Both the position numbers and the translations under genes were made by a program. DNA of 63,669 nt, filler included, from Platydemus manokwari (taxonomy: Eukaryota): NCBI GenBank assembly GCA_037951405.1. It is 6 parts of 6 records of this genome, joined end to end, with 100 filler letters (N's around TTAATTAATTAA, not from the genome) between each part and the next. Parts side by side here need not be neighbours in the genome. Positions count along the whole stretch, not along the records: positions 41,069 to 51,088 come from JBBMOY011178878.1; 5 more parts are not named here. One strand, written 5' to 3'. Shown here piece by piece: positions 6,046 to 51,613 of this stretch. Under the pieces are notes generated by a model, which saw nothing but the letters and a program-made list of their open reading frames with translations, had not been told where the DNA came from and made no database searches. The stretch's first letter is position 1. Each line of letters starts with the position of its first letter.

Positions 6046-6419
6046 AATTAACATAAAATAATTAAATTTAAATCAGATATAAATTAATCACAATAATCAA
6101 ATAAAATAAACTAACCTCATAATACTAATCAAATGAGATTTATTTTTGGTATTTACATGAAGTGATTTGAATTTTAAATTTAATAATTTATTAAAGTATG
6201 GAAATTTATTTTAAAAAACAGATATTGTTTTTGAAAAGTTTTAAACTTACAGAAATTAAAACATTTCATTAAAATTTTCTTAATAATGACTTCTTTAAAT
6301 GCGATAATCTTAATATTACTAAATTAATATATTTTGAATTTACTTATGTATTAAATAAATGTGCGTTATTTTTGATAAATGCTATTATTATTCAATATTA
6401 TAAAAGGATTATTTTAGAA

Positions 6420-7479
6420 ATGAATTCCATAAATTTGAAATCAATTTTTAAACTCTTAACAGATTACAAGTTTGATTCACAAGATAAGATTTCCGAATGT
6501 TATAAATGTAAGAAATGTCAAAATATTCTCAACAATGCGAAACAAGTGGAGTGTGGATGCAATCTTTGTAGCAAATGTGTGGACGAATTGATTGAAAGTG
6601 GAACTGATTTTTGTCCCGGAATGACGGAGTTATGCTCGGAGGCACATTTATCTAATGCTTCTTTTGATTATAAAATGAATCGCGATATATCTGGTATTAT
6701 TGTCAAGTGTCCAATGATGTGTTCCCATGAAGATAAATTGATGAACATGGCTGATCATATGAAGGTGTGTCCCAAGGAAAGCACGAAATGTGTTTTCAGC
6801 AGTTTGGGATGTGTGGCAGGATATTTGGCGAGAGAAAATGTTGATGATCACATGGAATTAGAATCGATGAGACACATGGTGTTGTTGATGGACACGATAG
6901 AAAATGTGAGAAACGAGAATAGAGAAATGAAGAGAGCGATGGAAGATCTGAGAATTGAGATCGAAAGTAGAAAGAATGAAAATGAAAATTTGCGAAATGC
7001 AAATGAAGAAATGTTGGAAAAAATGAAAGAAATGCGAGTTAAATTTGTCTTTGTGTTAGTTTCGATTTGATATTGATTTAGATGGGTGGCAGAATAGTTT
7101 GTGTAATTGACAAGTTGGATGAGAGAATCAATAAAAATCAAGCCTTCAAAAGCCAATATTTCTATGGCAACATGGAGTCCTATAAAATGTCTTTGTGGAT
7201 AAAGATGAATCCGGAAACTTTTGAATTCTTTTTCCACATTTGGCTGACAGCAGAAATCAATATCTCACATGGCCCTGCAAAGCTAAGGTCGAAATAAATA
7301 TTCGAAAAGAGGCAGCAAGGAAATCTAAAACAGAAATAGTGCAGATCGATAGTCCGCTAGGGAACGCAGTTCGTCAAGTTCGTATTTGCGAGTTCGGTCA
7401 TGCCGAGCTGAGAGCTGAAAATCTTCTAACTGATAATTGTCTTACGATTGAATGCATTGTTGATGAATTGATTGATTAA
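6420..7479 (+). pseudogene. TRAF-like protein copy 2; exons 6420-7037 and 7082-7479, with a 1-nt frameshift near 7241 (pseudogene or sequence error)
   Basis: Close paralog of 1517-2553 with the same 44-nt intron position. The MATH exon is split between ORFs 7082-7297 and 7240-7479. Copy 1 att tgt cag gat aligns to copy 2 att tg- gct gac. Confidence 0.85.
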
Positions 7480-13016: not shown

Positions 13017-13696
13017 TTATATTCTGAAAGTGCACTTAGCCCTTGAACTTGATTTATTTTGTGCATCAGTATGAGCTGTATATTCAATAGTACAAGTCAA
13101 ACCTAGAGCATCTTTAATTTTTTGTCCAATGCGTTTAATAGCCTCTGATGAAGAGCAATCTGTTGTCCAAACACTGACTCTATCACCTTTCCCTCTAATA
13201 TTCACAACAGCACCACAAATTTCGTCGGAGTCATCTTCGAATATTTCACCCACTAATAACATAAGAATTTCCAACCAGCATGGATCAAGGTGAGATGTTC
13301 GCTGAGTTCTATCAAATGATAAGAGCCACATTCCACCATTTTTATTCCTTTCATCCTCCCACATTGGCTGAATGACATCTTTAAATACATAATAATCACA
13401 CCCAGATGGTAATTTGGATGGTGGAGCAATGTGATTCATAAGTCCCCAAAAGCCTTCGACAGTGTCAAAGTCAATAACTTTTTTCATGTTGTCAATCCAG
13501 TCTTTACTTCTATCGTTTTTGAAAAAATAAAATGTCCACCTAGATTAAATTAAGATAAATTTCAAATTTATCATTTTTACTTATTTTGTAGGTAGTGTAA
13601 TTCTGAGTCTTGATTTAAAGTCTTTATGTTATCGTCATTACTATCATCTTCAACTTTTAAATTTGCCAAATTTCCCAGTGATGTTTCTTCAACCAT
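13017..13696 (-). CDS. eIF4E: Eukaryotic translation initiation factor 4E (class I); exons 13696-13581 and 13539-13017, 212 aa
   Basis: HYLQNK|WTFYFFKNDRSKDW, FDTVEGFW, PMWED, GG.W, DEICGAVVNIRGKGDRVSVW. A 41-nt GT..AG intron (13540-13580) joins in frame to the ATG at 13696. Confidence 0.96.
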
Positions 13697-16600
13697 ATTC
13701 TAAAAAATTTAAAACATTAATTTGGGCAACTTAGCTGTTCGAAAAGAAACGTTAACATAAAGTTTAAAATATTGACACATGCAATTATTTTAAATTGTAA
13801 ATATACGATAAGAATAAAACAACACGCACTTTGTGCAATTCAATTTAAATAAATATAATTTAAACTAAATTTTGTTAAATTTGTTAGTTAATCTAAATTA
13901 TTTTATTTTAAAAAAACTGATTTTTTTTATTAATTACTTAATGAAAATAAAAATATTTAGATGCCTCATAAAAGCTTTTTTATTAATTTTTTACTTATTT
14001 ACACAGTTACAAACCATTAATTAAAAATAGACGACTTCTACTTCTGAGTGTTTTACAATAATTTTTTATAAATTTTAATTTGTTGTGCGTATTGCAAAGG
14101 TTTTTGTAGTTTATTTAATTATATTCGTCAAATACATTTTGAATTCTTTTAATTAAAGTTTTTACAAAGAATTTTAGTTGAATGAAATAAATTACGAAAT
14201 ATATTATACATTTGAAATTTCCTAAAATTTGGTTATTTGAAAAATGAGTCAAAATTGATCAAACTGTAATTTATTAAAAATTACCAAGGCACCCACATTA
14301 GAAGCAAATTGGGAGATATATTTTAAACTATTTTCATTTATGTTATAAAAACAAGTAATATTAGATTACCTCACGTGTAATTGATTTACCAAATTAATTT
14401 ATAATTTAATTTTGTTTTTAATTTACAAAATCAAAAATTCATATAGAAGCGTTATGGGCAAACAAACTTAATTTAGATTCAACATAAATTAATTTTTACT
14501 TGAAATATAATAAAAAAATTTTCCAATGAATAATTCCAATTAATAAATAAAAACCACTGTTCTTAGTGTGATCATACTTTATATAGTGATTTTGTAGCAT
14601 GCATGTTGTTAATCATCTTCTTATCAGATCACATTGAATTGTTTTCTTAATAATTTAACTGACCACTTTTTCCTTTAATCTCCACAGTTACTATTTTTAT
14701 TCCTGCTTGTTTTTTCCTAGAATGTAAGTCGCCTTACATGATTTCTAATTCCTCTTTTCCAATTATAAATTCGATATTTTCCTTAAAATTCTCATTTTTC
14801 TCTCTTTCGTATTTTAATATGCTTTATTAGTTTTATATGCCATTAATTCTTGCCTTTATTTCAGTTACTTTTCGGTCTCTAGACAACTTTGCTTATTTAT
14901 TTAACCACAATTTTGCCTTCACCATCTACAACTTAGACCCGTTCCCAGAGCTCTAAAGAGACTCAGGTAGTAATTTAACCTCAGTATCATATTGATTCAT
15001 CTCGAAATTACATAACTTGTCCAAAAACAAGTGGAACTGTATGCATAATGAATTTCTTCCTAATATTATATTTAACTCAACTGGACTTCAATTAATTTCT
15101 ATATATTTCATAAATCAAGTCGATTGTTATTATAATTAATCTGTTTTTATGAACTTCATTAATTAACGATAACTTGAAAATGAATTATTTGTTTATTAAA
15201 ATAAATATTGTTGAGTAGAGACAAAATCTCTTAAAAATAAATACGATTTTTAACCTTGGAACTCTTGTTTTAGCTCGTTAAGCATTTCCAACTCTATACA
15301 ACCATACAGACATAGCAACCAACCCATCGCAGCTGACTTCAGTGGAAAATCATAATTCGAAAAATGAATACAACCGCACTGTAAAACACATAGGGATTGA
15401 CCAATCCCGAATTCACCAAATTAATATATTCAATTAGAACTTCAAAAATAAAAGATCAAATCAAAACATGACACAAAAAATTACGAATAAATCTCAAGCT
15501 TAAATGCTTATGCAAATGTTGGGTATTAATCAACAATTAGTTCAGAAAGTTATATTACCAAAAGTGTTACATTCTTAATCACAACAACTACAATGAAACC
15601 TCTCTATAATCAACAATAGTTTATCACACAAGATGGGATCAGGAACCAAAAGTCAAAAACAAAACAGAAAGTAGCTAAAAAGACTGGTTACTGAAAATCA
15701 CACAAAGTTACGACTAATACACAAGTTACCAACAAAAAAAACTGTCAATTACTCATGGAACCCAACACAAATACAAGAAAAACATAAAATTTCAAAAAAT
15801 AGCGATTTCCATACAATACTACGCGATAAAAATATAATTATTCAAAGGAGTTCAACATCTTGGAAAGTTAATGGTTAATGAAACCCCATTGCCATATTGG
15901 GGCAAGATATTTGAGACGAAGTTCTATTATATGAGTACATGATTTTACAAAATGATAAGTTCATTTAGTTCCGTATGAACTCTATGGGTATGATATCTTC
16001 GAATTTCGGCAATGATTGCGTAGCTTCGAATATCTAATTGATTACGAACACATGGTTCAGATAATGAGTAAGAGCACTGTGTTGTTCATCTCTATTATAT
16101 TAAAATTTTCTCACGTGTTTGTCATGGGTTATTTAATATTTCTTAATCCATCATTTAATTTATTTTAGGATTTTATACAGGTATTCTATACGATATGGTT
16201 TTTATTGATTTCAATTTTTCTCGTATGACAAATATAAGGATAATTTATTTTACAACAATTTCAATTGCTAACCAAGTAGTTTCACATATAATGAAAATGA
16301 TTAACATTAAAATACTTTCATTTATAAAAAATCAAATAATATTTATTATTGTACATTGTATTTATTACATTCAATACCAACGTACCATTTCCATTAGATA
16401 TTATATTAGTTTTGTAAATATGTATGTTACAAAATGATTTTTGGGTTAAAATATAAGTGCTTGAAAATTATATAAAAAATTCATTAATTTTTGAATATAT
16501 TAGTTTTTATAGAGTTTCTCAAAATTACAACAGTCTATTATCCAACACACTGTTAACAACATCAAATGCCTAGAATATCACCGCACTGATTGCACTCATA

Positions 16601-20569: not shown

Positions 20570-21240
20570 AATCAACAAATGTTTATAAGAACCAAAAAGA
20601 CTCTTGAGTACCAGGTGGGGGATTAGTGCCAACACTGGTCTCATTCCTATATTGACTTCCTCGGCTGATTAGTGCCGGGTCAATCCCTATACAATTCAAC
20701 GAATTACCACTATTAATAAGAGTTTTGTCCTCCGCTCGAATACTCTTCTCAACCTGTTTACTTTTGCTATGGCAAGCATACGCATGTCTCCCCCTAGGGG
20801 GACTTACTTCCGATCCAGCTCCATTCTGACCATTCCTAGCGGTAAAATATCAATAAAACTTGGATATGCTCGTGTTTTGGTAATCTTAACATATGAACTA
20901 TTTGTGTTATAGTTATAGGAAAGTGGATTATGATTATTATGTAATTTATTATTTTGTGGAAATGAATGAGCATTAGGTTCACTAGTAAGTGTTCTCGGAT
21001 TTTCATTCCTAGTTAAACCAGTGCGATTGCTGTTGTGGAGGGAATTAGATCTAGAAAAATGATCACTATGGTTGTAATAATAAGATAGTTTTCGTCTGTT
21101 GGATGTAAACGATATAAATCTAGTTGTAGCTGATTGTCTGCTAAGGTTATTGATTTTGTGGTTGATAGAGTGGAACAGTTTTATTCGAATTATTGGGTAG
21201 ATTGTAAGCTGAATTTCCATTTCGATCTCTAAAAACATTG
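20570..21240 (-). mobile_element. Possible Gypsy gag/protease remnant
   Basis: N/S/H-rich Gag-tail-like ORF ends in FIDILPLGMVRMELD. A small indel would give an aspartic-protease-like LDxGS motif. Confidence 0.35.
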
Positions 21241-21478
21241 TTTATAGAAAGGTAAGTATAATTATTAAATTGATTACGTAACTGATTAGGTTTAATTTGT
21301 TTTCAATTAATTTTAAAAAATTATTAAGTACTATTAGAGCTGCTATTCTTTATTCTTACATATAACCACTCATTTTTGACATATTATATACCTTACAAAA
21401 TAATTCTTAGACATTTACTGGATGAAATAAACATTTACATATGTAGTCACTAGTTTTCCATTGACAATTTTCGTATTA

Positions 21479-22279
21479 TGTGGAGTTTTCGTAACTCGAA
21501 GGTTGAGCGGTTTTCTAACAATCTGACTCCAAGGTTTGCGGATACTAGCACTTACTACTAGCCCTTATGACAACTTATGTAATAATAACACAAGACTTAA
21601 AAATATTTGATATAATAGGTGTACAAGCTGAATAACGATTATCAATATACAATCAGGGTGCAAGCTGAATAATGATTAATAAGCAGAGGTTCTAAAAGAA
21701 CAGATTCGCTACTTATCCCTAAAGATGATGGTTATTTCCGGTGCCGCCTAATAGCCCGGACAGACTTGGAGCCGTAAAGGTTTCGATAAAGTAAGGTGGC
21801 AAGCCCGTGAAGGGATTGCAGGCATAACAAAGAAATAAAACATAATTAAAGACATAAAATTACTCATGATAGTTTGAAGAGTCGCTACCAAGTTATTCGT
21901 TCAGATTAATTGTTAGCTCTGTAAGGCGATTTGACTGAGGGAGTGCTTGGTATTTATATCATTTTTGACAAGGCACGGCTTTGTTCACATGTTTGTTTTG
22001 CAATTAGACGTATTTGTTTAAATTTCCTCTCATGTTTTTGTATCGATAACATGTTTTTTTTGCTTTGTTTGTCTTTACTTGGTTTCAATGAATTGTCGTA
22101 ATTCAAGTTCCTTTATATTTACAAGCTTTGTTTGCTTTTACTTAATCTAAGTAAATCCACTCAATTCAAATTTCTTTATATTTACAATAAGAATTTTAAT
22201 TTTTTGAAATTTAATTTTTCTATATTATTTTATATTTATATTTTCTAAATACTTATAATTGTAGTTGCAATCCCTAACA
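21479..22279 (-). repeat. 3' LTR of the adjacent Gypsy element (distal end is 21911 or about 21479)
   Basis: Starts TGTTAGGG on the minus strand right after purine-rich ACAGGGACG. Inverted termini tgttag (21911) and ctaaca (22274-22279), a TATAAATA box near 21951-21958 and short internal duplications. Confidence 0.55.
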
Positions 22280-25200
22280 CGTCCCTGTAAATGTTAAGTG
22301 GTCAGGTTTTACATGCGAAATTTGAGCAGCATACTAAGGATTAATACATAAGCATAAGACAGAAAATATGATGCCTAATGGCGAATATCTTTAGTCAAAT
22401 TAGTCATATACACAATGTCACTTAGTTCGAATTGTTTGGTTTGGTTGGCTGTGCCGGCTGGCACCATTCACATGACTTCTCTTGGGAAGTATTTGGATCG
22501 ATGAATAGATTTGGATTACACCAGATACAACTATCACGTTGATCGGTGGTTGGTTTCGCTGCCGCTGTAGGTTTAGCTTTCTCTGGATATTATATCGCAA
22601 TTTCCAGATCTCTGTTGGCGAACTCCAAGCTTACTGTTCCTGGAAATAGCTGAGTTAGAAACCATAGTTTGTTGTCATCTTCGAAGGATCTTAAGATATC
22701 CTGTGATAGATACGGTAAGCCTGAGGGATCGAGTTGATTAATAGAGTCAATTAATAGAGTCTTGGCGAGATTTGATGTTGAGTTGCTTTTCTCTAACGAT
22801 GTATTCCGAGTTTGCACACTTGGTTGTTTTGGCTCCCGTTCGTCTTCTGTTGCGTCCAAGTCAACGTAATCCCTATCATGACGTGGTCTTTATACTTGTG
22901 GTTTTCGTTGCGCAATGTGTATTGTTTCATTTGATGATGCTTGTTTTAATGGAATTCCTTTTGATGTTTTCTTTAGCGTTATTGTTTTTGATTCATCTAT
23001 TTTTAGGACTCTTGGGTGATTGAGCGGAATGGCTTTTACTGTTTTACTGAGAGTTACTGTTTTCGACTTATCTACAGTCACGATTCAAGAATTTCCTTCA
23101 GTTTCTGCTTGCCTGACCTGTGAAACGGGTTTTACTCTTTCAGATTGGTCAGGGGTTGCTTTCATTTTTAGTTTAACAAACGGATGGTTGATTCGTGTTT
23201 CGCCGGTTTCTTGACTGGTTGATGCCTTTGGTCTTTTAACTGCTGATTCTTCAGTCTTCTTTTTCAATTTCTGTGGTATTAGACTCAGCAAGAATTGTAA
23301 CGCACTCTTGTTAATTTCTCCATTGTTTATTAATTCGTCCTCTGGTATAGGATAGTGGTCAGCCCACTTATATTCCAATTCGATGTAGACACTTCGTATC
23401 TCCTCCAGTATATTGACTGTTCGGTTCGACTAGGCTGGTAGTTAGGTGCTATCTGTCTTAGGATTTTGTGCCATGCAAAGTGAGCTGCATGCATAATTCC
23501 GTATTCCGCAAGGCTTTTGGCTCGATATAGATCTCGTATACCCAGTAGACGATTAGAGGGTATACGGAAAGGTTCCAATAGCTCGGCCACTTTATAGTCC
23601 ACTAATAGATGCTGATCCACTATGACATTGACTTGGCGGATACATTTTATTTCGTCGATTTGCCCAATAATGTCTGCCTCTCGCCACACATCTGCTTCGT
23701 CTTCCTCCAACACCGGATATATTTCCTTGCAGCGATTTTAGTGTTGAGTAACTCGTGCCCTTCATAATCCCAGATGGTGACGGCTAAGGCGACAGTTTTT
23801 GTGTACGTGTCGTTAATTCGAGGAGCTGCTGATGCGATTCTGGCAGCAATGAACAATGTTTATGACTTGAGAGTGATAACTGAATCAACTGTTGAGTAAT
23901 GGTGTTGTAGTGAGAAAAGGGAATTCGAGGAATATTGATGATATCGTTGAATCCCATTTCTAACACCAATGTGTTTGGTACGCGGTGGTTAACGATTAGC
24001 CCGATTTGAGCCTGATGTCGCTTTGTTGAATTTCCAGGGTAAAAGCCTTTTCTAGCTTGATGGTCTCGAAGACACCTGCGATTCGAATTTCGACTGGTTG
24101 GACGGTAGTAGTGAGATGAACTACCTCCTTGTTGTGTGCTTGGCTTGCCTTTGGGAAATAGGTTACTAAGTCCTTGATTTCAGATTGGTCTCTGAAGACG
24201 ATAGAGATGTGGCGAGGTCGTCGCCCTTCGAATTTGAGATCGTTCAGTCGTAACATCCTATAATTAGATTTATAATGTGTGACTCGGTAGTCGTGAATTG
24301 GGCGAGTTGTATTATGGTCTCGCTCTTATTTGTTGCATGATAAGTATTGTTTATCTGAGTCCATTGCGTAGTGATGACCTCCATGATCTGGCCCTGTCGC
24401 AGTTGGTTAAAGATACATCGTGCAGTGTAGTGTTGTGTCCGACCAATCCCGTCTTGACCGATAATCGTCGTGCTGTAATGGTATCTTTGCTCCTGGTGGG
24501 CGGTAAATCCTAGCCAGAAGACTCCCAAATAACGTAGAGGCCCTTAAATGTACTAGCCAATTTGCTGGATACGCCCTTCTTGCATGTTTTTGATTCAAGC
24601 ATCACCTTATCTCCGACTTTGAAATCGTGTTCAGCAGTATGCTTATCGTATTGTTCCTTCATTTGCTGGAAGTTCTTGATGAAATTTGAGATTAAGGTTA
24701 GCTCTCTGCCAGGCATGGCTTAGGCGTTCCTTGAGTGTGACTGCGTAATCTTCGTGATCTATATATTGAGTGACCCTTGGTTCTATCCTTACGTTCACTG
24801 GTAGGTTTCTTTCTCAACCATACATCACGAAGAACGATGAGTAGTCTGTACAGGATGCGAGATAAACATCTCAATCCGTTTGTGTGTTATTGGTATAAGA
24901 TGCGAGCATATGGGTTAACGTCCCGTTGAATCGTTCGACCAATCCATCCGTCTGAGGATGGTATGGTGGCGTATTCAATTTAGTAATGTTGAATATACGA
25001 TTGACTTCTGTCAAGATGTTAAGGAATTCGGTTCCTCGGTGAGTAAGAAGTCGCTTAGGTGCTCCGTATCGGTAAACAATATCTTCGACAAAGCATTTAG
25101 CAACAGTATTTGCAGCTTTGTCAGGCAATGCATACGCTTCTGGCCAGCGTGTTTGGTAATCACAGAAAACAAGGATTTATTTATTGCCATGTTTTGCCAT

Positions 25201-25900
25201 TAGGTATGGTTTGATCACAAAGATGGGCCTTACAGCTGAGTAACCCTAGAAGTGTTAATTCGCTTCCATCGATTACAATGATGGATGCTCCGTTAGTATT
25301 CCCATTACTCACTGGTACGTTCAATATGAGAGGGTGAATGACAGTAGTGTAAGCACCCGTATCGACTAATGCAAAGACATGATGTCGATTAATTCTGATC
25401 GGTGTCAGCTTGACGGTGCAAGTTGACTCGTTGGTCATGTTACAGTATTCATTGTATCCCAGCTGGTTTTGTCTATTCATTCTGGCCAATAGGTCTGCAG
25501 TAACTTGTTCAGTTTGAGCTAAAACTTGTAGTTCCTGCTTTGGATACTGTCCATGAGTAGGATATTGTCTGTATGAAGAAGGCTGCATCTGTAAGTGTTC
25601 TCCGGATGTATCTGGTACATTTTCTGGCCTCTTGATGGGCATGGTCCCCATCCGAATTTTCTCATCATTTTCCCTCATTATTCGAATATTATGTTGCATT
25701 CGTAACGTTGGTTGTTTTGGCGGCTTTTCTATTACAGGCGGCTCAGTCCTCCATGGTCTATAGTCGTTATCGTCGTCGACAGAGGGCTAGTCTTTGATGA
25801 TTGAATCATTGACACTTCTAACCATTTTCATGTAGGATAGCCACTTCAATATCATTTATTACTTTGTCGAGTACAGCTGTTGTAATAGCATTTCGAATAT
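22280..25900 (-). mobile_element. Decayed Ty3/Gypsy element: gag tail - protease - (RT/RNase H deleted) - integrase - long accessory coding region
   Basis: Protease ALVDTGAYTTVI. Integrase DYQTRWPEAYALPD, YRYGAPKRLLTHRGTEF, TPPYHPQTDGLVERFNGTL, FKVGDKVML..KLASTFKGLY. About 2 kb of additional same-strand coding sequence lies before the LTR. Confidence 0.92.
23400..23900 (-). pseudogene. DEDDh-fold (ISG20/REX4-like) exonuclease-like cargo domain, frameshifted
   Basis: VALAVTIWDYEGHELLNTKI...EADIIGQ...IRQVNVIVDQHLLVDYKVAELLEPF...LLGIRDL follows the REX4/ISG20 pattern (ARVSIVN..G..VYD.YV.P...V..EV..LL...ILVGH....DL..L......IRDT). Match judged by eye. Confidence 0.55.
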
Positions 25901-40968: not shown

Positions 40969-41068
40969 NNNNNNNNNNNNNNNNNNNNNNNNNNNNNNNN
41001 NNNNNNNNNNNNTTAATTAATTAANNNNNNNNNNNNNNNNNNNNNNNNNNNNNNNNNNNNNNNNNNNN
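40969..41068. other. Artificial scaffold gap with linker
   Basis: N run with TTAATTAATTAA. Confidence 0.97.
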
Positions 41069-41637
41069 ATATTAAAAAAGGAATTTAAATCAATTGTTTG
41101 ACGATCTTACATAATATATAATTGGTTCTTTTTATAACATATTTATGTGTAGTTTATTTGTAACCTCAGATTTCAATTTGGTGAAAAACTAGAATTAGCT
41201 AGAATTTTATTACCACTTTCTATCAAAGCCTCTTTAAATTAGAAATCAAAATATTTATAAAATAATTCTATGCATTACAAAAATATTACATATAAATATT
41301 TTCATTATTAATTATAAACGCTCCATTTGAAATAAAAATAAATTCATTTGTTTATTTGAATCAATTTTATTTCTTTGCTTATTTAGTCAAATTATTTGTT
41401 TAATAATTTGATCATCTATATTTAAGTAAGAAGAAAGATTTTTTATCTAAAGTTATAAACATCTAAGATAAGAACATATATCATATTTATAGATAACTTA
41501 ATATATTGTAATTTATATTAAATCACGTCCTCATTTTTTAATATATAGGTAAAAAGTAAAGTTGGTAGAATCGTTGCTTCTTATTAGCTTCCAAAAATAA
41601 AACTGAGATAAGTTAGGCTAAGACAATTGTTTTAGAA

Positions 41638-43324
41638 ATGAGTATCAAAAGGGAAAATGAAATAATTATTGATGATGGTCCTGAATCTGGACAATGTTCT
41701 GATGATGAGACTGAAAAATTTACACTTCAAAGGAAATCAAAAAAGCATAAAAAGCGTTCAAAAGGCAATAAATCAAGAAAAAGGAAATATTCTGATAGCA
41801 CATCGAGTAGTACTAAAACTGAAATTGAATTCTTCAATCCCTATAGTGTCAATACGGACAAATTTAATTATAAATCAGAGTGTTATGACAATTTTGCCAT
41901 TCTAGAACTACGAAATGAGAATTCTAGGAATTTTTCAAATCAGCTCCAAGATGATATAATAGATGAATCTTTCAACAGATTAGATCAGCAAGATATGAAT
42001 CGAGTAGACGATCGTCCACCAAAATTTAAAGATATTCCTATTTCTGCTTATGAATCACCATCTAATCAAAATGTAACAAAGAAAATTAATGATTCTGACT
42101 TAAAAAATAGTCGCAAAGCATTGTATCTGATTGATAAAACTGGAATCGAGTCAACTCATGCTGATTTACGTTATTATCTGGTAGACTTTGGATTTTCCAA
42201 CAGTCTTGCATCTGATGTCTGCGCAGTTATATACAATACTGGCAGTCCTGAGCGTGAAAAAATTTCTACTAATGAAGATGAAGAGATAGAAGACAATGAA
42301 GATGAAATGTTTAACGACTTACCAATCATTGACGCTTCAGCTAATTCACATGATGCTATTTATACTAATAGTTATTCTCCAGAACCAGCCAATAAAATAA
42401 TAGAACCATATGATACTGAACAAGGATTACCTATATCTTATGCGTCAAATTTTTCAAGTGAATCGTGCCCTTTGTTAAAACCCCTTAATGAGGTTATTGA
42501 TTTGCAAACTATACCAGATGTTGGACCACGAGATCCTCGATTGAATCATAACAAACAAATTCTCAAGCTAAATGCTGTATCAAAATTTTCCGTTCCCGAA
42601 ACTAATAATGAAAAACTGAATGCTAAACCCCATGATAATAATTCCCAAATAAATAAAGAGTGGGAAATTACCGTTGCCAATATGGTTAAAACTCATCTCA
42701 GGTTATATTTGGTTCACAATGACATCAACAAGGAGGAATATAAATCCATTTTGAAAAGAGCTGTTAACAAAGTACATTTTAAAAATTTAAGTGAATTATC
42801 ACCGACATCAGTAATATTCGTTTTTTATAAGAATTCAGGCATAAATAATTATTACATTGTTTATTATCGAATTAACTTTCAACTTATTGTTCACTTTTTT
42901 TTCGTTGAGTTCTTTTATGAATCTGGTTTTAAAATGAATTATTTTTATCCAGTACATTTTATTTTTAAAAATTTTAACGTTAAGTTCAATTTAATTAGAT
43001 TAACAGTTCTATATTTGATGACAGAAAATGTTAATTCTTTTAATACTATTTTTCAGATTAATAAATTATTATTGACATTGTTTTCAAATTTAAGACAAAT
43101 CATTAAAATATTAATCTGTTTAAACAAATTTCATTCATTCAAATTTATCTTTACTGCTGTCGGTTATAATTTCAATTGTGAAATTTTGAATTTGTGATTT
43201 GATTTTTGCGTGTTTTTAGATAATCAGCTCTGGTGAAAAGAAATTAGAAACCGATAAAATTTCCAAATTCCTTCATTCATATGTCATAATGATGCAGAAA
43301 AGCAGATATGTAGATAGTATTTAA
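41638..43324 (+). CDS. Nuclear protein with a SCAF11/PHRF1-type C-terminal (Pol II CTD-interacting, SRI-like) domain; exons 41638-42771 and 43220-43324
   Basis: Basic NLS cluster and a PRDPRL motif. The spliced C-terminus VANMVKTHLRLYLVHNDINKEEYKSILKRAVNK|IISSGEKKLETDKISKFLHSYV resembles the SCAF11/PHRF1 pattern I.KEEYK.I.RKAV.KV. The ORF-track tail after 42771 is intron read-through. Confidence 0.7.
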
Positions 43325-45850
43325 GTCTTGTAAATAATTTCCATTGATGAATTTTGTGCAAATAGATTTTGTATTCAATCTTTTAACGTAACTAGTTTTA
43401 GGTTATTTTGAAATTATTTGAGTAATTACAAATTTATTTCATATCAAGTTTCGCGATTTTATTTAATTTTATAATTTTTTTTAGTATGTAACTGAGAATA
43501 CTTGTTAATATTAAATATAATAAGTGTGGAATACAACCAGCCCAACATGTAACAATCCATACGTGTATCTGTTATTTTATACAATTCTGGATATGCTTAT
43601 AATCATATTTTATAAATGAGACATTATAATAGATAATTATTCATTATTAAGTGGATATAATTGTTAGTGAATATTCATATAACAAATAAATATTATTGAT
43701 TCACTTGATAAAAGATTGTTATTCTTGATTTGGTATTCAGGTTATTCATGACTGAAATTTGTTGTAAAGTTATTTCCCGTCTATCATTAAATAATTAATA
43801 ATTACAATTGAGTTACGCAATCTATCAAATATCTTCCAAGTAGCTTGATTATATTTTGGAAATAACTTGCATAAAATCGGTAATAAATATTGATTTGTAT
43901 TGCTGTTATTATTTGAAAAATTATTTTTGGCTTATTGAGTCAGCATTTTGTTTAGAAATGAAATGTGTTTTCATTGGTTTAGAATTCAATAATAACTCGT
44001 GAAACTAATTATTCAATAAACACACTTACAAAATCGATTCGATAAATGAACATTATTCGTTCTGAATTGTTTTGCTGATGTCTTTGTCTTATCTGGACTC
44101 CTTATTTTTATCATCTGAGGTTTTCCATTTTTTTTTTGTAGTCAACTCATATTTTCCCCTAATATAGGATCGCACATGTTTATGTTTGTAACATGATTTA
44201 TATTTGTAATCTACATTGTTTCATTAAACATTTCATCAACTTTTATGATCACATTTATGAGTCTGTTTCGAATATTTTTCTGTTGACCTTCTTTGTGTTT
44301 GTCAATCGATATTGAGTGTTTTAAACATGTTTCCATTGATCGAATTATTAACAATCGAATAATATTAAAAAACCAAGTATTGAATTCGATTTTTAAATTT
44401 TATCCCAAAGATAAATTAATAAAAAATGATGAAGAATTATTTGAATGAACTCTTCATAAATTTTCAAAAGAGAATGATTGTCATTTAAAACAAAATCTTA
44501 TCTGATCTGGATTTTGTGATAAACGATTGTTATGGGATAACAATGATTCAGTTAAGGATTATTTTTTCAGGCTTATCTGATATGGATTTCCAAGTCTTCA
44601 CTTATGTCACAGAGCTGGATCAACAAAAAATTCATAATGTGGGCGAAAAATAAATTTAAATTACTTGTAGGCGAATTTATAAAGTAATTATAATATCCAA
44701 CAGGAAAAATAATAAACAAAAATAATTATTCATAATCCGTAACAGAAAACAGTACATAAGTTATAGGAATATCAGAAAATTCGCTCACACAAAAGACTTA
44801 TAAGAGACAATTTTGAAAATGAACAAGAGCTTATCTTTACGAGTACAATTTTCAATCACGACAATAATGTGCTCAACTAAAAGGCATCTAGATTTTGAAA
44901 AGAACAATAAATTATCTTTGAGAGTACGATTTTAAATCACGATAATTGTAAAAGTATTAAAAGGGAAGTTTGTCTATTTTTTTAAATCTGTAATTAAAAT
45001 ATTTAATTTTAACACAAAGTAAGTTCGTTATCTGGACCTTTCATAATTGACCCTCGTTTTAACTTGTTTCTGAATAAATTTGTAATTTTGAGTTGTTTGT
45101 AAAACTAATTAAGTGTTATTAAATAAAGGGGGATACAAATTATTTTCTATAATGAACAAAAAGCGATTTGAATTATTAATTTAAAATTTTTGTAGTAATA
45201 ATAATATTAACACGTTTGTTGGGATGCCCACCTAATACTTTCTAACACTAAACAAAAAGCAAAAAACCCATTAAAAATGCACGCTAAACCGTATTTAAAA
45301 AAATCATATAAAACCCCCTAAATCTTATCGACAGCTCTAGAAATCCCTGAAAACCCCATTTAGAGTTGATACATAGAAACCCCATATATAAATAATTTCC
45401 CTGTAAAATATGCGCCGTAAGACGTTCCTGAGTGTGGACTAAGCTGCTGCAAAGTAATTCATTCAAGCCTACTGCAAGCCAATCCTCAGAAATGAGCAAT
45501 CTGCAATTCCTCAACAAAAATTAACAATTTATCGACAATTAATTATAAAGCTGATTTTCGCTTTTGATGTGCCATTATGACAGTGTCTTATTATTATAAC
45601 TTTATATGTCATTCAATATTATTGGGTTTTATTTTTGTATCGTTACAGCTTTATATGTTATTCAATATTATTTAATAGAATTTTATTTTTGTTGTAAAAT
45701 TCGGTGAACGATCAAAATATGGAGAATAGTAAAACAAATAAATAATAAAACTAATTAAGAATAAAAGGAAAGAAAAGAAGAGAATAAATAATAATTAATA
45801 AGGATAGGATTATAATAAATAATAATAATAAATAATAAAAAACCAAAAAA

Positions 45851-48265
45851 TTGAGAACTGATATCATTAATCTACATCAACCCATAGACCCCTTTGTTAT
45901 AGCAGCATGGGGAATCCCTATCGATGATGATGAGTACTTAATAGATGTAGAATGCTTACCCGGTTTTACAACCGCAGTCCAAATAATCACAGTACCAACT
46001 GAAACTACCTGGAATAGAGCAACTATTCCAGCACGAAATGAAATAAATGAAATCGATATAGATAAAGCGCCTATTATACAAATACCTACCGAAATTGAGA
46101 AGGTGATTGACTTAGATACACCCGATGTGGTAATTAATGAATTTCAAGAATTACTAAATGAACTACCTACTAACATAGATTTACCTGGGGAAATCCAGCC
46201 GCAAGATGAAATGGTAGACGACATTCCGGGGACTTCACATCGAATATTAAAACAAAAAAGAGGGAGACCGATCGGGTCCAATATAAGAAAAATACCGCCT
46301 CCCATCGAAATCTTAGATCCAACAATAGGGTCACAAGGGAAAAGTAAATTACTTAAACAAATAGCTAATGAAGCCAGCCCTTCACATAAAACAAAAATAA
46401 AAGAAATATTAATAAAATTAGCAAAAGTGGTAGAACCGCAGAATTTAAAATTGCCTTCAGTATCTACTACCGGATATCAAAACTTAATAAAAGATGTTAA
46501 AAAATACATGTCTCGCTTACAGCAACTACTAAAAATGAAAGGGAAACTGATCCAGAGACTATTATTCATTGCAAATGGATGAATCCTTCATTCGAGTTTT
46601 CCACTTGTGCATAGAAAAATAAATCATTAAAAATCAAAGAAAGAATGGTTAAACAATTAATAATCAAAGTTTTTAAATCTAAATTATATTTTGAAAAAAA
46701 TTTATAAATATCAGTGAATATGGAAGGTTTAAAAAACAAAATGCAAAAACTTTATCAGATTATATCAAAACAACTTTAGATAATGCTAGTATTGTTGATA
46801 AAAAATTTAGTAAAGCTGAAGTTTTTAAGAAGATTATGAAAAGTACATTTGTGCAAGCACAAATTCAAAATAATTTCAATTATGCATTACTTATTTCAAA
46901 GAAAACAATATTAACAAGATCGCAGTGGTCTTTAGCAAGTTCTGTTTCGCAACCAACAACAAGCGTTAAAAATTGGAGTGGATTTCATTTATTTGATCGC
47001 AGAGGAGCAATTATGGAAAGATTGCGCTTTAATTTTGTAAATAAATTGCCGAATATTATATCGAAACAATTTGCAACGGCTCATACTCGACTGGCAGTGT
47101 TATCACAATTACCTTTCGCTTTAAAATTTTTGGGGTTTTGGGGAAGATCATTGAGTCGAGCAACATGGCGAGCAGTTGGTCCTACTGTTATGCTTATCGG
47201 TATAACAAGTGGTGTTCAGTATGCTGCACATTTACATAATAAACACCGTGATTACCTTATTAAAGAATATTATGAGAGTAATTTGCAAGATACTCACTAC
47301 GAAAATATAAAACGAATGCTAAATTATCACGAAAACTATGATATTTTAGATAACAAACACAAAATTGAGTTGGTGAATTTTTGGAATAGTATAAAATGGT
47401 TAAATCATGAAGACATATTCAATCTGGCAAAGTACGATCCTAGTACGGTGATTATCATAATGAACGATTAAAGTGGGAAGCAGGTTTACCAGGAGCCAAA
47501 ATGCCACAACCGGAATATAACATTGCTTGGAGGGGTTTTCCAAAAGTGCAACCCAAATATATGCCACGTGGTACTCATTGGAAGGATGGACGTATTCAAC
47601 CTGGTAAGGCTTCTAAAGAAAAACCATACTACATTGATTGGCACAAGACATTTATCAGGCAGGATATGTGGGATCCACGTATCCGTAGGCCTAGAGATAC
47701 TATTCAAGACTTGGGCATCGCCAGTTGGAATAAACATGACAGGAGACTAATCAAATTGGGAGTGAAGCAAGCAATTAAGCGACGATTATTAAACCGCAAG
47801 GAAGACAAGTTGAGTACAGAAGATAAATTTAAATTGGTTAAGATCGGATCTTGGTGAACGAACAGATGAAACTCGAGCATGGAAAGCTTTCATTCCTGAG
47901 AACAATAAGAATTTCATGCAATCAATGAAATGGTGAATAAAAGTGTGTTTAATAGATTGGAATAGCAATTAAATCCCTGGCATCCACAAAAAGGATGGAA
48001 TACGACTTTGGACGACTATGGCACACGGCTAGCAATGCGAGCCGTTGTTACTCCATATTTGGATGACATTGAGGTAACAGAAGCTCTAGATAGATATTTT
48101 GAAACTCAATTGGATGCGTATCAACAAATCTTAAGCCAACCAGTTATGCCTAGTATAAATAAACCTAATGTTTATCGAAATGGGTATTCATCCACTATGT
48201 CTTTTACGCTTATGGCTGGGGCTCCACCTCATCATCTCAGGGATTTGTGCCCAGTAGTATCATGA
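45851..48265 (+). pseudogene. Long fragmented coding region of the viral element, function unknown (first fragment has an AT-hook KRGRP)
   Basis: Successive same-strand intronless ORFs 45851-46582, 46836-47471, 47501-47857 and 48008-48265, separated by stops/frameshifts and running into the capsid-like frame. Confidence 0.5.
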
Positions 48266-49503
48266 CTCCACAAGTTATTGAATTTGAAACTATGGGTTGC
48301 AATGCTTTTCAAATTACCGAAAATGGGTTTTGGTATAATTTCCCATTTGAATATCCCTATCCATTTCAAGAGGGTCGCTATGAACAATATGCTCAAATTG
48401 AAAATTACAAATTTTATCAACCAATAGCAATGTATTTTGTTATGAAAGATTTTGAAATTACTGCGGAAACCGGACCAAGATGAAAGGTCACTGCATAATG
48501 GATATGATAAAGATGGTAATTTATCATTGATGACTTCATTTAAGCTAGAAAAAAACGATGGATGGATTTATCCATATGAAACATGTGGACATGTTTCACA
48601 CCTTAATCCATGCCTAGGAGAATAATATGTCTACGAATGGCAAGCTACAAGTAATCGACGATATCCACGTTTGACAACTGAATGGCATAAGCAGAAATAT
48701 CCAATTCCAGCTAATAATAAGTGCCATTCGATGTTATATCGCTTTGATGATTTGAATATTAAAATATTTTTACCTTTTCGAACCCGCCTTGCAGTTTCAC
48801 AAGGCCGTCATTCATATGATAAATTTGGCAATTTTCATCATCGCCCATCGAAAATGATAATGCAATTGCCATTTGCTGAAGACAATACAAATAAGCAAGT
48901 AAAAACTAATTTGGTATATATTGATGATTTAGGTGTATGTCATAATACGCAACCTTTAACAAACGAAAATTTAAAATTAGCTAAAACTGTCATGTATTAC
49001 AATGATCTTTGGAATTTCCTGAAGCTTCTGAACATGATCCAATGCCAATGTTATTCTTTAAGTGTCAAACAATTGTCGGACCAAATTATGCAAAAGTCCG
49101 GTTAACAGTTACTTTCAATTCGACATTAAAATATACTTATCGAGTATGGGGTAAAACACCGCAATCATCTATATCTCAACATATTCCAACGCGGCAATTT
49201 TCTATTAATGACGTGTATGGTCAACGCTTTAGGAAAAGCTATAGGGTACCATATATTTTTCCAGTTTATTATTTTGTCAATTAATGGGATGAAGAGAAAC
49301 GCCAGATTACAAAAGAAGAATTATTTCCCATGATGCACCATAATGTAAAATCCTTAGCCGTAGCCAGATATAATGTAGTATTTCATCAAGAAGTGGAATA
49401 TTTTAGGTGTATAGAAGGTAAAAATTCTATTAGTAGAATTACCACTACTACTGCTGCGCCAACTACAACGCCAGGGGCCACTACCACTGCAGCTCCAACA
49501 TGA
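48247..49503 (+). pseudogene. Parvovirus/densovirus-like capsid (VP) gene, disrupted
   Basis: GFWYNFPFEY...EQYAQIENYKFYQPIAMYFVMKDFEI resembles the parvoviral VP betaC-alphaA-betaD region. ETCGHVSHLNPCLGE*YVYEW and PMPMLFFKCQTI...LKYTYRVW resemble later VP core strands. Match judged by eye. Confidence 0.65.
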
Positions 49504-49560
49504 TATGATTGGACAATAATATTATATATTAAACTGTTTTTTTATAATGTTATTAAATGA

Positions 49561-50190
49561 ATGAATATATTTTTTCGCGTCTTGTTAGATTTTTTGATTT
49601 GTTTATTAGCAGCGCTGATTTTAGCATCTACTATTGATCAAATGTTGGACCATTTGCATACATCTACTAACTTGGATAATCTCAAAAAGTGCGCGATTTT
49701 GTACATGGTATTGGCGAGAAAGGCTGCAAAGACGAACACAATCATCTTTACAGGCATACCAAATTCTGGGAAAACTTTGACGTCATCAATATTAACTGCT
49801 GGAATGAATATTGGCAATTTCAATAATTAAAACTTCAAGTCAGAATTCGCTTTGGATGATCTCATTGATAAAGAAGTTAGCATTGATGAAGAAATTATAT
49901 TTGATCAAGATAATTGTGAATATTACAAGCTATTGTTAGAAGGCAATCGCAATTTAAAAATATCTCGAAAGCACAAAAGCAAGGTCGCACTAATACCAAT
50001 TCCCATTATTTTGACTAGCAATAATCCACTAGCAATATTAGCTCGTTCGGTACATGTGGAACGCAAAGTGGAAATTTATTTACATTATCAAAATGGTCCG
50101 ACTTTTGATCCATATGCCCATCCTGAAATTCTCAAGCAAGTTAGAGACCATTACTTTAATGCATTTGAAGGATTAAATTTAAAGTTCTAA
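49561..50190 (+). pseudogene. Parvovirus NS1-like superfamily 3 helicase domain with one in-frame stop (49828-49830)
   Basis: KTNTIIFTGIPNSGKT (Walker A), VSIDEE (Walker B), KLLLEG..LKISRKHK (B') and PIILTSN (motif C). The two ORFs are in the same frame, and AATAAA follows at 50209-50214. Confidence 0.9.
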
Positions 50191-50452
50191 GTAAAATGTC
50201 TATTGCTTAATAAATGTATACCAACGTATTCTTATTGTTGATTGATTTTAAATTTTAAAACTTTTCTATACTACGTTGTAATGGCAATGGAAATATTTTA
50301 TATATCCAGGCAATACACTATTATAGTAATAATGTATACTTGTTTTATTTTATTTTCTACATTGAGGCAACGCAATGGAGCATATATAAGTTTTTACTAA
50401 ATATTATCGTTGCTTGTTGTTCATTAAAAGTGTAAAAACCCCGGTAGGGGGG

Positions 50453-50527
50453 GGGCACATGCATTTAAACAAACTATAGCCATGGCTTAACCATGGTTCT
50501 TACATGTAATTAAGTTTGTTTTTGCCC
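50453..50527. repeat. Branched hairpin: inverted repeat enclosing three phased 10-bp palindromes
   Basis: aaacaaact (50467-50475) pairs with agtttgttt (50513-50521), with outer gggca/tgccc. Inner agccatggct, aaccatggtt and ttacatgtaa start at 50478, 50489 and 50500. Confidence 0.75.
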
Positions 50528-51088
50528 AATTTTAACTGGAAGATTATCTAATTCCAAGTTATAATTAAAGTTAGCGCAATTTCCAGTAAGATAATTCTAC
50601 AATTTATATCACCTGTTATTTTTTAATATTAATGTGTTGGGATAGCATGGAACCTCTTGTGCTCTATTCAGATAGTGAAGAGAGCGAGGACGAAAAAATT
50701 CCATATGCTATCAAAACATATAGTGAGTGGAAACAGCAACAACAGCTGTCCCAAAAACAGCCGCAGCCAAACAAACCATTAACGAGCACTGATAAGTTCA
50801 AAAGACCAAAAACACCTCCAAAACAGAGACCCGAAAGACCCGGAACACCAACAGTTAAACCCGCGTCAATAATAATGAAATCAGGGGAAACTTGAGCTAC
50901 CCGAAGCTGAAAAGTGGATTTAGACGCTTGATGTCAGTAAAGATTCCCATCTGCGAATTCAAGGAGTCAAATCCCAATCCAATCAATCCAATATTTTGAC
51001 TTGATGTGATCCTAATTTTGAACTGATATTTTATAATTGATGAACATTTTTATCTTGAACATTTTTGTTAATATTTGATCTAACATTA

Positions 51089-51188
51089 NNNNNNNNNNNN
51101 NNNNNNNNNNNNNNNNNNNNNNNNNNNNNNNNTTAATTAATTAANNNNNNNNNNNNNNNNNNNNNNNNNNNNNNNNNNNNNNNNNNNN
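51089..51188. other. Artificial scaffold gap with linker
   Basis: N run with TTAATTAATTAA. Confidence 0.97.
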
Positions 51189-51363
51189 TACACACACACA
51201 CACAAATATATATATATATATATATATACATCATCGGGTATTTATAAAAGATTTATCTTATATCATTGTATTTACCTTTATAATTATCATTTTTATTTAT
51301 TATAATTAATATTTATATTATTTATTCATTCAAAAATATAATTATAATGCAAAATATCCTTAC

Positions 51364-51613
51364 AAGTATTATCATTTTGTTTAAGAGCTGATTGGAGAAC
51401 GATTTCAGAATCCGAAGCGACATTTGCACCTTCTGAATCATGGCCAGCCGAATCCACAACATCATCCGCTGCTCCATTAACCGTATCATCATCCTCACCA
51501 GGACTAAATGCACAATCTTCATCACTCGGTGTCTTATCGATTTTATCCATCATTTCTGGATCATGAATACCAACCAATAGACTATAGCTCATCATATTGT
51601 TGGATTGGAGAAA
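51364..51613 (-). CDS. Internal exon of a phosphatidylinositol-phosphate kinase (PIP4K2-like)
   Basis: FLQSNNMMSYSLLVGIHD followed by an acidic insert matches PIP4K2 EFLAQLKLMDYSLLVGIHD. Bounded by a catag acceptor and a gtaagg donor. Confidence 0.8.

What the first reader, a model, noticed from the sequence alone, without database searches (positions are those of the whole stretch)
45250..50990. Endogenous parvovirus/densovirus-like element with an atypical same-strand order: long unknown region, capsid, SF3 helicase, hairpin, new ORF
Seen: within one contig, about 3.6 kb of contiguous decayed coding sequence ends in a VP-like frame, followed on the same strand by an SF3 helicase with no visible HUH endonuclease, an AATAAA, a branched hairpin and a fresh ORF (50632-50895). 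Known: parvoviruses are either monosense (NS then VP) or ambisense (convergent), and NS1 is HUH plus SF3. Bidnaviral NS1 lacks HUH, and a parvovirus-related extrachromosomal element (PEVE) is known from the planarian Girardia tigrina. Inference: this is either an integrated permuted or concatemeric copy, or the fossil of an undescribed flatworm ssDNA virus or selfish-element lineage with its own genome plan.
Basis: partly seen in the sequence, partly recalled or inferred. Interest (0 to 1): 0.82.

Follow-up and report, generated by a model that had tools for sequence, protein, structure and literature searches.

The report
Integrated relic of planarian PEVE-type virus
A decayed virus insertion in an animal genome has a capsid-like gene followed by a stand-alone helicase, the same order as in the little-studied planarian virus PEVE, and it indicates that two separately annotated PEVE genes are likely halves of one capsid gene that would be joined by splicing only when a genome segment flips.

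Summary
The core observation holds: on one strand, decayed frames lead into a capsid-like gene (48262-49503) and a stand-alone SF3 helicase without HUH (49561-50190). The hairpin is not significant, and the 'fresh ORF' lies in a high-copy repeat. This is neither a permuted parvovirus nor a wholly new plan. The helicase falls in a supported clade of short helicases with that of PEVE, the unclassified Girardia virus-like element. PEVE's small segment has the same capsid-then-helicase order, and PEVE encodes its HUH Rep separately. New point: the window's capsid gene is collinear with PEVE 'ORF1L' (large segment) plus PEVE 'putative capsid' (small segment), and a natural 428-aa protein matches both halves. 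PEVE's halves end in in-phase splice-like sites flanking its 243-nt inverted repeat, so a full capsid would be made only from the flipped isomer (inferred). No Rep or inverted repeat was found in the window. The jelly-roll fold rests on sequence features only, because both structure predictions failed. The flatworm host is inferred. The PEVE paper could not be read. The scan's earlier notes held nothing similar. Verdict: new variant of the PEVE/PIVE kind.

The parts
45217..46746 (+). Multi-copy block, starting with the 9-mer TGTTGGGAT; holds ORF A. Either the left arm of the element's family or a neighbouring host repeat
   Evidence: Summed depth 167-967 against about 14 in the core (right border known only to bin resolution). 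The 9-mer occurs only here and at 50635 (0.52 expected)
45839..46582 (+). ORF A, 247 codons stop to stop, Ile/Pro/Glu-rich, function unknown
   Evidence: no Pfam family; no significant match to five PEVE large-segment ORFs
46695..48265 (+). Decayed frames B (46695-47471), C (47444-47857) and D (to 48265). Same position as PEVE ORF2L (614 aa); possibly a minor structural protein (inferred)
   Evidence: no Pfam family at cut-off; no significant similarity to ORF2L (best z 1.8). B and ORF2L each have one central hydrophobic segment, similar by eye only
48262..49503 (+). Capsid gene of PEVE type with no intervening repeat, about 410 codons; broken by two frameshifts (near 48480 and 49010) and two in-frame stops (48623, 49282)
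   Evidence: Read with X at breaks: z 8.3 against the two PEVE halves (0 of 500 shuffles); z 7.1 against P0161 and 9.9 against P0160 (0 of 1000 each). PEVE-type profiles rank 48271-48474, 48569-48781 and 49021-49161 first in six frames of the window
49561..50190 (+). Stand-alone SF3 helicase, 209 codons, Walker A at about 49753, one in-frame stop at 49828; acceptor-like AG sites at 49588-49624
   Evidence: Pfam Parvo_NS1 1.8e-14; PDB; 96/87 clade with the PEVE helicase; AG sites
50209..50214 (+). AATAAA, likely the poly(A) signal of the helicase
   Evidence: Sequence
50470..50540 (.).
   Evidence: z -0.95; z -0.82 for 50400-50640
50635..51088 (+). Start of a high-copy repeat beginning TGTTGGGAT and running to the contig end; contains the 'fresh ORF' 50632-50895
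   Evidence: Depth 3300-6100; two other contigs begin to match at 50635; other copies differ at many positions, including the ORF's stop codon; no meaningful Pfam family

Best explanation
The single-copy core (about 46750-50270) is a decayed, chromosomally integrated piece of a PEVE-type virus, with unknown frames, a capsid-like gene, a stand-alone SF3 helicase and a poly(A) signal on one strand, most likely from a single-stranded DNA virus of a flatworm. In this lineage the nicking Rep and the parvovirus-like helicase are separate genes (shown for PEVE), so the missing HUH domain is a family trait rather than damage. The Rep side of the genome is absent here, lost or lying beyond the repeats (inferred). 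The virus likely replicated as a circle by Rep-initiated rolling circle, with the separate helicase serving elongation or packaging into a small jelly-roll capsid (inferred). This copy is dead, with five breaks in capsid and helicase, and is flanked by multi-copy repeats. It keeps the capsid gene in one piece. PEVE carries the same gene in two halves either side of its 243-nt inverted repeat, which would be removed as a 267-nt intron once the small segment has flipped (inferred).
For: Helicase: the six best of 369 hits (E<=1e-3) are short proteins of 134-244 aa, and the sixth is the PEVE helicase. Eight of 43 rows form a starred clade (96/87) of the window, PEVE and six unnamed helicases; the seven database rows start with Met and have Walker A at residue 61-95. 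Order: the PEVE small segment encodes 'putative capsid protein' (242-739) then 'helicase' (1026-1709) on one strand. Capsid: the window frame, read with X, has 410 positions and aligns collinearly with ORF1L + X + capsid of PEVE (411 positions): score 87, z 8.3, 0 of 500 shuffles, across the junction; the swapped-order control scores 60. Natural protein P0161 (428 aa) matches ORF1L over residues 53-274 (48%, E 2e-73) and the PEVE capsid over 285-425 (33%, E 1e-22). P0160, 75% identical to ORF1L, stops three residues after the same point. The donor and acceptor are both phase 0 and lie 5 and 19 nt outside the repeat. Capsid class: the Atlas feature hits of ORF1L score 0.95-0.90 and all ten listed rows are ssDNA-virus capsid clusters (smacovirus, densovirus, parvovirus, IHHNV, gyrovirus). 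Weak PDB hits go to 60-chain VP2/VP3/major capsid entries (E 0.015-0.23). A PEVE-type profile scores 14.4 bits on a bocavirus-like VP against a maximum of 2.1 in 500 shuffles. Integration: host-like flank and eukaryotic genes nearby; core depth equals flank depth.
Against: No Rep, ORF3L, ORF2L or inverted-repeat homologue is detectable in the window. Capsid identity to PEVE-type proteins is low (54 of 191, 74 of 254 and 42 of 163 aligned residues), the C-terminal half alone is weak (z 3.4, 4 of 500 shuffles), and the swapped control still reaches z 4.1. Both AlphaFold models failed (pLDDT 35 and 29.5), so the fold is not shown. The Atlas warns that only 5 of its 10 best family-bearing hits share a family with the top one, a designed repeat protein outranks the capsids in both PDB profile searches, and the C-half profile does not beat shuffles on the bocavirus-like VP (23 of 500). 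No second locus with gene order was retrieved: 8 viral, 2 metagenome and 1 genome scans gave only PEVE and one bocavirus-like contig. Short helicases are not unique to the clade (39 of 150 hits start with Met and have Walker A within 110 residues), and three clade members look C-terminally cut. The deposited PEVE repeats pair best in the orientation that does not join the halves (100% and 98.8% against 99.2% and 97.9%). No RNA evidence for splicing was obtained.
Confidence: 0.8

Rival explanations
1. The viral core is PEVE-type, but ORF A and the 'fresh ORF' belong to host transposon families (LTR-type or Ginger-type, 5'-TGT ends) that flank or captured it. This is compatible with the best explanation and only changes the element's borders.
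For: Both flanking blocks are multi-copy and both begin with TGTTGGGAT, its only two occurrences on either strand (0.52 expected). TGTTGGG also begins an integrase-bearing element at 26040 on the minus strand (rve E 1e-4, below the Pfam cut-off).
Against: No matching right end or target-site duplication at the blocks' ends; no similarity between the two blocks or to the 21-26 kb element by blastn or tblastx. Frames A and B are only 112 nt apart on one strand. One contig joins 46585 to 50209 on opposite strands (side 35 nt), hinting that ORF A and the post-helicase DNA belong to one family.
Confidence: 0.45
2. In PEVE the two capsid halves are not spliced. They are translated separately from two segments, each with its own ATG, and assemble as a split capsid protein, or they are joined in trans.
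For: The records are deposited as two segments; the C-half has its own ATG at L001 242 and is annotated as a 165-aa protein; the deposited repeat copies favour the non-joining orientation.
Against: In-phase GT and AG sites sit exactly where the unsplit P0161 passes from one half to the other (10 residues in P0161 against 12 in the joined form). ORF1L and P0160 agree up to the donor point and diverge right after it.
Confidence: 0.2
3. The helicase is only the last exon of a spliced NS1 whose HUH exon lay upstream or across a circular junction; the element would then be a parvovirus-like virus with a rearranged map.
For: Acceptor-like AG sites at 49588-49624; the first 25 or so codons of the window ORF match relatives poorly; only 57 nt separate the capsid stop from the helicase ATG, against 286 in PEVE.
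Against: No HUH motif in 45200-51088. PEVE annotates the helicase as a complete 227-aa protein and has a separate Rep. The seven database relatives in the clade start with Met at similar distances from Walker A.
Confidence: 0.1
4. A permuted or concatemeric insertion of an ordinary NS-then-VP parvovirus or densovirus that lost its HUH part, or a misassembly.
For: The best Pfam family is Parvo_NS1; densovirus insertions with NS1 then VP occur in tapeworms (PMC6880638, passages).
Against: No terminal hairpin between capsid and helicase; full-length NS1-like hits rank below the short helicases (first at E 5e-12) and fall outside the clade; capsid and helicase both point to PEVE; one 3790-nt contig spans the junction with 0 differences (possibly the same sample).
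Confidence: 0.05

Closest known systems
[quoted passage not shown]
   Same: Stand-alone SF3 helicase in one clade; homologous capsid; capsid then helicase on one strand; a long unknown ORF region upstream of the capsid on the same strand.
   Different: The window copy is integrated and decayed, its capsid gene has no intervening repeat, and there is no inverted repeat or CRESS-type Rep in view. [quoted passage not shown] Helicase identity is only 32%.
PIVE (Repbase; integrated virus-like element of Schmidtea mediterranea)
   Same: Integrated, PEVE-related, NS1-like helicase in a planarian genome (PMC3198968, passages).
   Different: The window element may be a member or a sister.
Parvoviridae (Densovirinae, Hamaparvovirinae; flatworm densovirus EVEs such as EmuDNV)
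   Same: SF3 helicase of the Parvo_NS1 family; capsid N-terminal strands weakly alike.
   Different: No HUH-SF3 fusion, reversed gene order, no terminal hairpin; EmuDNV has NS1 then VP (PMC6880638, passages).
Bidnaviridae (Mouviricetes)
   Same: SF3 helicase kept as a separate gene (PMC13595969, section 7).
   Different: Bidnaviruses replaced HUH with a protein-primed PolB. No PolB family was hit in the window frames, and PEVE keeps a separate CRESS-type Rep.
Smacoviridae and other Cressdnaviricota
   Same: The top Atlas look-alikes of the PEVE capsid N-half are smacovirus capsid clusters; PEVE Rep has weak Viral_Rep and Gemini_AL1_M hits.
   Different: A second, parvovirus- or papillomavirus-like SF3 helicase and a 7-kb two-repeat genome are not features of these viruses (recalled).

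Membership tests
PEVE-type elements | Stand-alone short SF3 helicase related to the PEVE helicase | tested here: met
   E 4.8e-15 to the PEVE helicase; starred clade 96/87
PEVE-type elements | Capsid protein homologous to PEVE ORF1L plus putative capsid | tested here: met
   z 8.3, 0 of 500; z 7.1 and 9.9, 0 of 1000
PEVE-type elements | Capsid then helicase on one strand | tested here: met
   Window against L001
PEVE-type elements | Separate CRESS-type Rep on the opposite strand | tested here: not met
   No hit of a two-sequence Rep profile in six frames of the window and no HUH motif in 45200-51088; the copy may be partial
PEVE-type elements | Two unique regions bounded by inverted repeats of about 245 nt | tested here: not met
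   No long inverted repeat in 44400-51088; present in L001 and L002
PEVE-type elements | ORF2L-like long ORF upstream of the capsid | tested here: inconclusive
   Same position, but best z 1.8 and no profile hit there
PEVE-type elements | Extrachromosomal form | not testable with these tools
   The core is at host-like depth in the one run; contigs cannot show episomes of diverged relatives
Parvoviridae | NS1 with HUH endonuclease fused to SF3 helicase | tested here: not met
   Walker A at residue 65 of the ORF; no HUH motif
Parvoviridae | SF3 helicase of Parvo_NS1 type | tested here: met
   53.9 bits against a cut-off of 20
Parvoviridae | Single jelly-roll capsid protein | tested here: inconclusive
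   Atlas and weak profile hits for PEVE-type homologues; folds failed
Parvoviridae | NS-then-VP or ambisense order, with terminal hairpins | tested here: not met
   VP then helicase on one strand; hairpin z -0.82 and -0.95
Bidnaviridae | Protein-primed PolB | tested here: not met
   No PolB family in the nine element frames scanned
PIVE (Repbase) | Sequence identity, terminal inverted repeats and ORF set of PIVE | not testable with these tools
   Only a description in PMC3198968 was available

The most novel reading that the evidence does not exclude
PEVE, this relic and at least six unnamed relatives are an unclassified family of animal ssDNA viruses that keep a CRESS-type nicking Rep and a parvovirus-like SF3 helicase as separate genes beside a jelly-roll capsid, a fourth kind of change to the HUH-SF3 replication module. 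In the PEVE branch the capsid gene is cut in two by the genome's inverted repeat, which doubles as an intron, so flipping the small segment acts as a DNA-inversion switch between a capsid-off and a capsid-on genome. The window element and P0161 preserve the unsplit state.
Probability: 0.4. Interest if true: 0.85.

Novelty: new variant of a known kind. Interest (0 to 1): 0.62.

Why it matters
PEVE has sat as an oddity since 2002. Only 3 papers in the searchable library hold its GenBank name, and GenBank calls only a 165-aa fragment its capsid. This locus and the relatives it led to give PEVE a probable full-size capsid (about 410-430 aa) and a family of short helicases, and they show that such viruses entered an animal genome. 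They also make two claims directly testable in laboratory planarians: that the inverted repeat is spliced out, and that segment inversion gates capsid production. A recent taxonomy paper lists three departures from the fused HUH-SF3 module (PMC13595969, section 7); a separate Rep plus a separate SF3 helicase is not among them. The locus itself is a dead, single-copy relic, which limits the score.

Tried and rejected
No whole genome is held. Terminal hairpin: rejected. Terminal direct or inverted repeats between the element's ends: none. Rfam: 0 hits in 44000-51088. Structure: the single-sequence model of PEVE ORF1L had pLDDT 35 and the five-sequence model of P0161 had 29.5; its Foldseek search gave 0 hits at E<=0.001 and is meaningless. 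The Atlas's own model of ORF1L is also poor (pLDDT 0.29; best TM 0.39, to a parvovirus VP cluster). The Atlas on the 73-aa first capsid piece gave nothing at 0.9 or above. PDB searches with single capsid pieces or PEVE halves gave no capsid. Pfam has no capsid family for any PEVE-type capsid. A search for longer homologues of two window capsid pieces gave 0 of 210 candidates. Locus scans: viral 8 of 8 gave nothing, PEVE only or one bocavirus-like contig; metagenome 2 of 2 were empty; the one genome scan was empty. MAFFT misplaced fragments in alignments A3-A5, A8 and A12, which were not used for searches or folds. No RNA holder was listed, which is no evidence on expression. The window's upstream frames matched none of five PEVE ORFs (35 pairs; best z 2.6, 6 of 200 shuffles, for a short tail piece). 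No complex prediction was sent, since no binding is claimed. The AU test of the clade was not run. The scan's earlier findings held nothing relevant. The PEVE genome paper is not held.
Full report
Observation. The region lies at the right end of a 10-kb contig (41069-51088) between scaffold spacers. Plus-strand open frames tile 45839-49503, followed after 57 nt by a 209-codon frame (49561-50190) with one internal stop. That frame is an SF3 helicase (Pfam Parvo_NS1 E 1.8e-14, PPV_E1_C 3.4e-7; PDB NS1, E1 and Rep hits) with Walker A at residue 65. No HUH motif occurs in six frames of 45200-51088, although the same pattern finds one in PEVE Rep. AATAAA follows at 50209. The proposed hairpin is no more stable than shuffles (z -0.82 and -0.95).

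Copy structure. One public run holds the stretch; it may be the source sample. In it, 46481-50270 is one 3790-nt contig with 0 differences at depth 13.9, like the host flank. By contrast 45077-46746 (summed depth 167-967) and 50421-51088 (3300-6100) are multi-copy; summed depth is not a copy number. Two other contigs begin to match at 50635, so the 'fresh ORF' starts on the border of a repeat, and other copies differ at its stop codon. Both blocks begin with TGTTGGGAT, found only at 45217 and 50635 (0.52 expected). One contig joins 46585 to 50209 on opposite strands (35 nt on the short side); this is only a hint that another copy has the core inverted.

Helicase relatives. Among 1.84 billion representatives, 369 proteins hit at E<=1e-3 and 150 were listed. 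The top six are short (134-244 aa). [quoted passage not shown] A quick tree of 138 rows (137 of the 150 hits plus the window; rows without a Walker A match or too short were dropped) grouped six of them at SH-aLRT 86. A careful tree of 43 rows (the top 40 minus one, three more, and the window) gave a starred clade (96/87) of eight: the window, P0001, P0002, P0005, P0003, PEVE, P0004 and P0018. Short N-termini also occur outside the clade (39 of 150), and P0001, P0005 and P0018 look cut at the C-terminus.

PEVE's map. I fetched both PEVE records (L001, 1911 nt; L002, 5699 nt). L002 has the same repeat at both ends, ORF2L (614 aa) and ORF1L (264 aa) on the minus strand, and ORF3L and Rep on the plus strand. 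The shared repeats fit one 7124-nt circle in which the small segment can flip (inference). The deposited repeat copies pair best with Rep next to the capsid fragment. In the other orientation the strand reads ORF2L, ORF1L, repeat, capsid fragment, helicase, which matches the window's unknown frames, capsid, helicase.

The capsid gene. Read with X at its four breaks, the window frame 48262-49500 has 410 positions; ORF1L up to a GT site plus the capsid ORF from an AG site has 411. They align collinearly across the junction (score 87, z 8.3, 0 of 500 shuffles; swapped order 60, z 4.1; N-half alone z 5.6; C-half alone z 3.4). A search with ORF1L found 5 of 221 candidates. P0161 (428 aa) matches ORF1L over 53-274 (E 2e-73) and the PEVE capsid over 285-425 (E 1e-22), so the two PEVE ORFs correspond to halves of one natural protein. 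P0160 (75% identical to ORF1L) stops three residues after the same GT point. That GT is one of 2 phase-0 GT sites among 5 in the 100 nt examined, and the AG is one of 3 phase-0 sites among 4; the two nearest the repeat give a 267-nt intron and 12 linking residues against 10 in P0161. The window frame matches P0161 (z 7.1) and P0160 (z 9.9), 0 of 1000 each. Profiles of the natural PEVE-type proteins rank its three pieces first, in order, in six frames of the whole window (iE 1.4e-4, 0.015, 0.073).

Is it a jelly roll? Likely, but not shown. All ten listed Atlas feature rows for ORF1L (0.95-0.90) are ssDNA-virus capsid clusters, led by smacovirus capsids. PEVE-type profiles hit 60-chain VP2/VP3/major capsid entries weakly (E 0.015-0.23), below a designed repeat protein; that these entries are parvoviral is my recall. 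The N-half profile scores 14.4 bits on the VP of a bocavirus-like contig against a maximum of 2.1 in 500 shuffles; the C-half does not beat shuffles. Both folds failed.

What is missing. No Rep, ORF3L, ORF2L or inverted repeat is detectable in the window. Frames B-D occupy ORF2L's position without significant similarity. No further locus with gene order was retrieved, so conservation of order rests on two genomes. The host is a eukaryote with eIF4E and TRAF genes; a planarian is inferred from PEVE only.

Mechanism. Shown: an integrated, broken capsid-like gene and an HUH-less helicase, both closest to PEVE. Inferred: a circular ssDNA virus with a separate nicking Rep, inserted once and decayed, with Rep lost or out of view; and, in PEVE, an inverted repeat acting as an intron so that only one isomer yields full capsid. 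Rivals: the flanks are host transposons (0.45, compatible with the main reading), split translation in PEVE (0.2), spliced NS1 (0.1), permuted parvovirus or misassembly (0.05).

Literature. Passages read: PMC3198968 (PEVE not found integrated; PIVE in Schmidtea is related), PMC9241645, PMC6186406, PMC6880638 and PMC5618006. PMC13055364: part 1 of 6 and passages. PMC13595969: passages and section 7. Eight searches listed no paper whose title or abstract start describes a split or spliced PEVE capsid; I read only the passages named. The 2002 PEVE paper is not held. I recall that it describes two unique regions bounded by inverted repeats and variant forms, and it may anticipate part of the isomer model. 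I did not open supplements; Figure S7 and data S3 of PMC3198968 may bear on PIVE's map.

Verdict. A real feature, partly as described; a new variant of the PEVE/PIVE kind, not a Parvoviridae member by three tested features. Interest 0.62, mostly for what it reveals about PEVE's capsid gene.

Noticed in passing
window 21000-26040 (minus strand): Decayed element starting with TGTTGGG, with a protease-like DTGA motif (by eye) and an integrase (rve E 1e-4, below cut-off), but no reverse-transcriptase hit in three minus frames; possibly Ginger-like or a deleted LTR element.
   Followed up: partly
window 5400-6000 (minus strand): A second integrase-like fragment resembling the 21-26 kb element by eye; no Pfam hit at 1e-3.
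   Followed up: no
window 15517-15767: 251-bp unit bounded by TGTTGGG and CCCAACA; its start resembles the sequence at 35615 (minus) by eye; solo LTR or MITE candidate.
   Followed up: no
window 1475-2553, 6273-7070, 13017-13544, 41617-43197, 51326-51613: Host genes: two TRAF-like paralogues, eIF4E in one open frame, a weak SCAF11-like C-terminal hit and a PIP5K-like exon.
   Followed up: partly
window 46585 and 50209: One contig joins these points on opposite strands, bracketing the single-copy core; it could be an inverted copy like PEVE's flipping segment, or chance.
   Followed up: no
window 50621-50720: Most stable fold of 182 windows (z -5.8, uncorrected), at the start of the high-copy repeat.
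   Followed up: partly
L002 931-1128 (minus) and P0159: The N-terminus shared by P0160, P0161 and P0162 lies in a different frame from annotated ORF1L in the PEVE type 1 record, and type 2 differs again over residues 36-80; the deposited records may carry errors or lesions.
   Followed up: partly
L002 5296-5418 and L001 818-957: 72.5% similar non-coding stretches upstream of the repeat and upstream of the helicase; possible duplicated promoter.
   Followed up: no
P0033: 905-aa unnamed protein with two matches to the SF3 helicase query.
   Followed up: no
window 40969-41068, 51089-51188 and three other gaps: Contigs are joined by a fixed N-run spacer with a 12-nt all-frame stop, so order across gaps is not evidence of adjacency.
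   Followed up: yes
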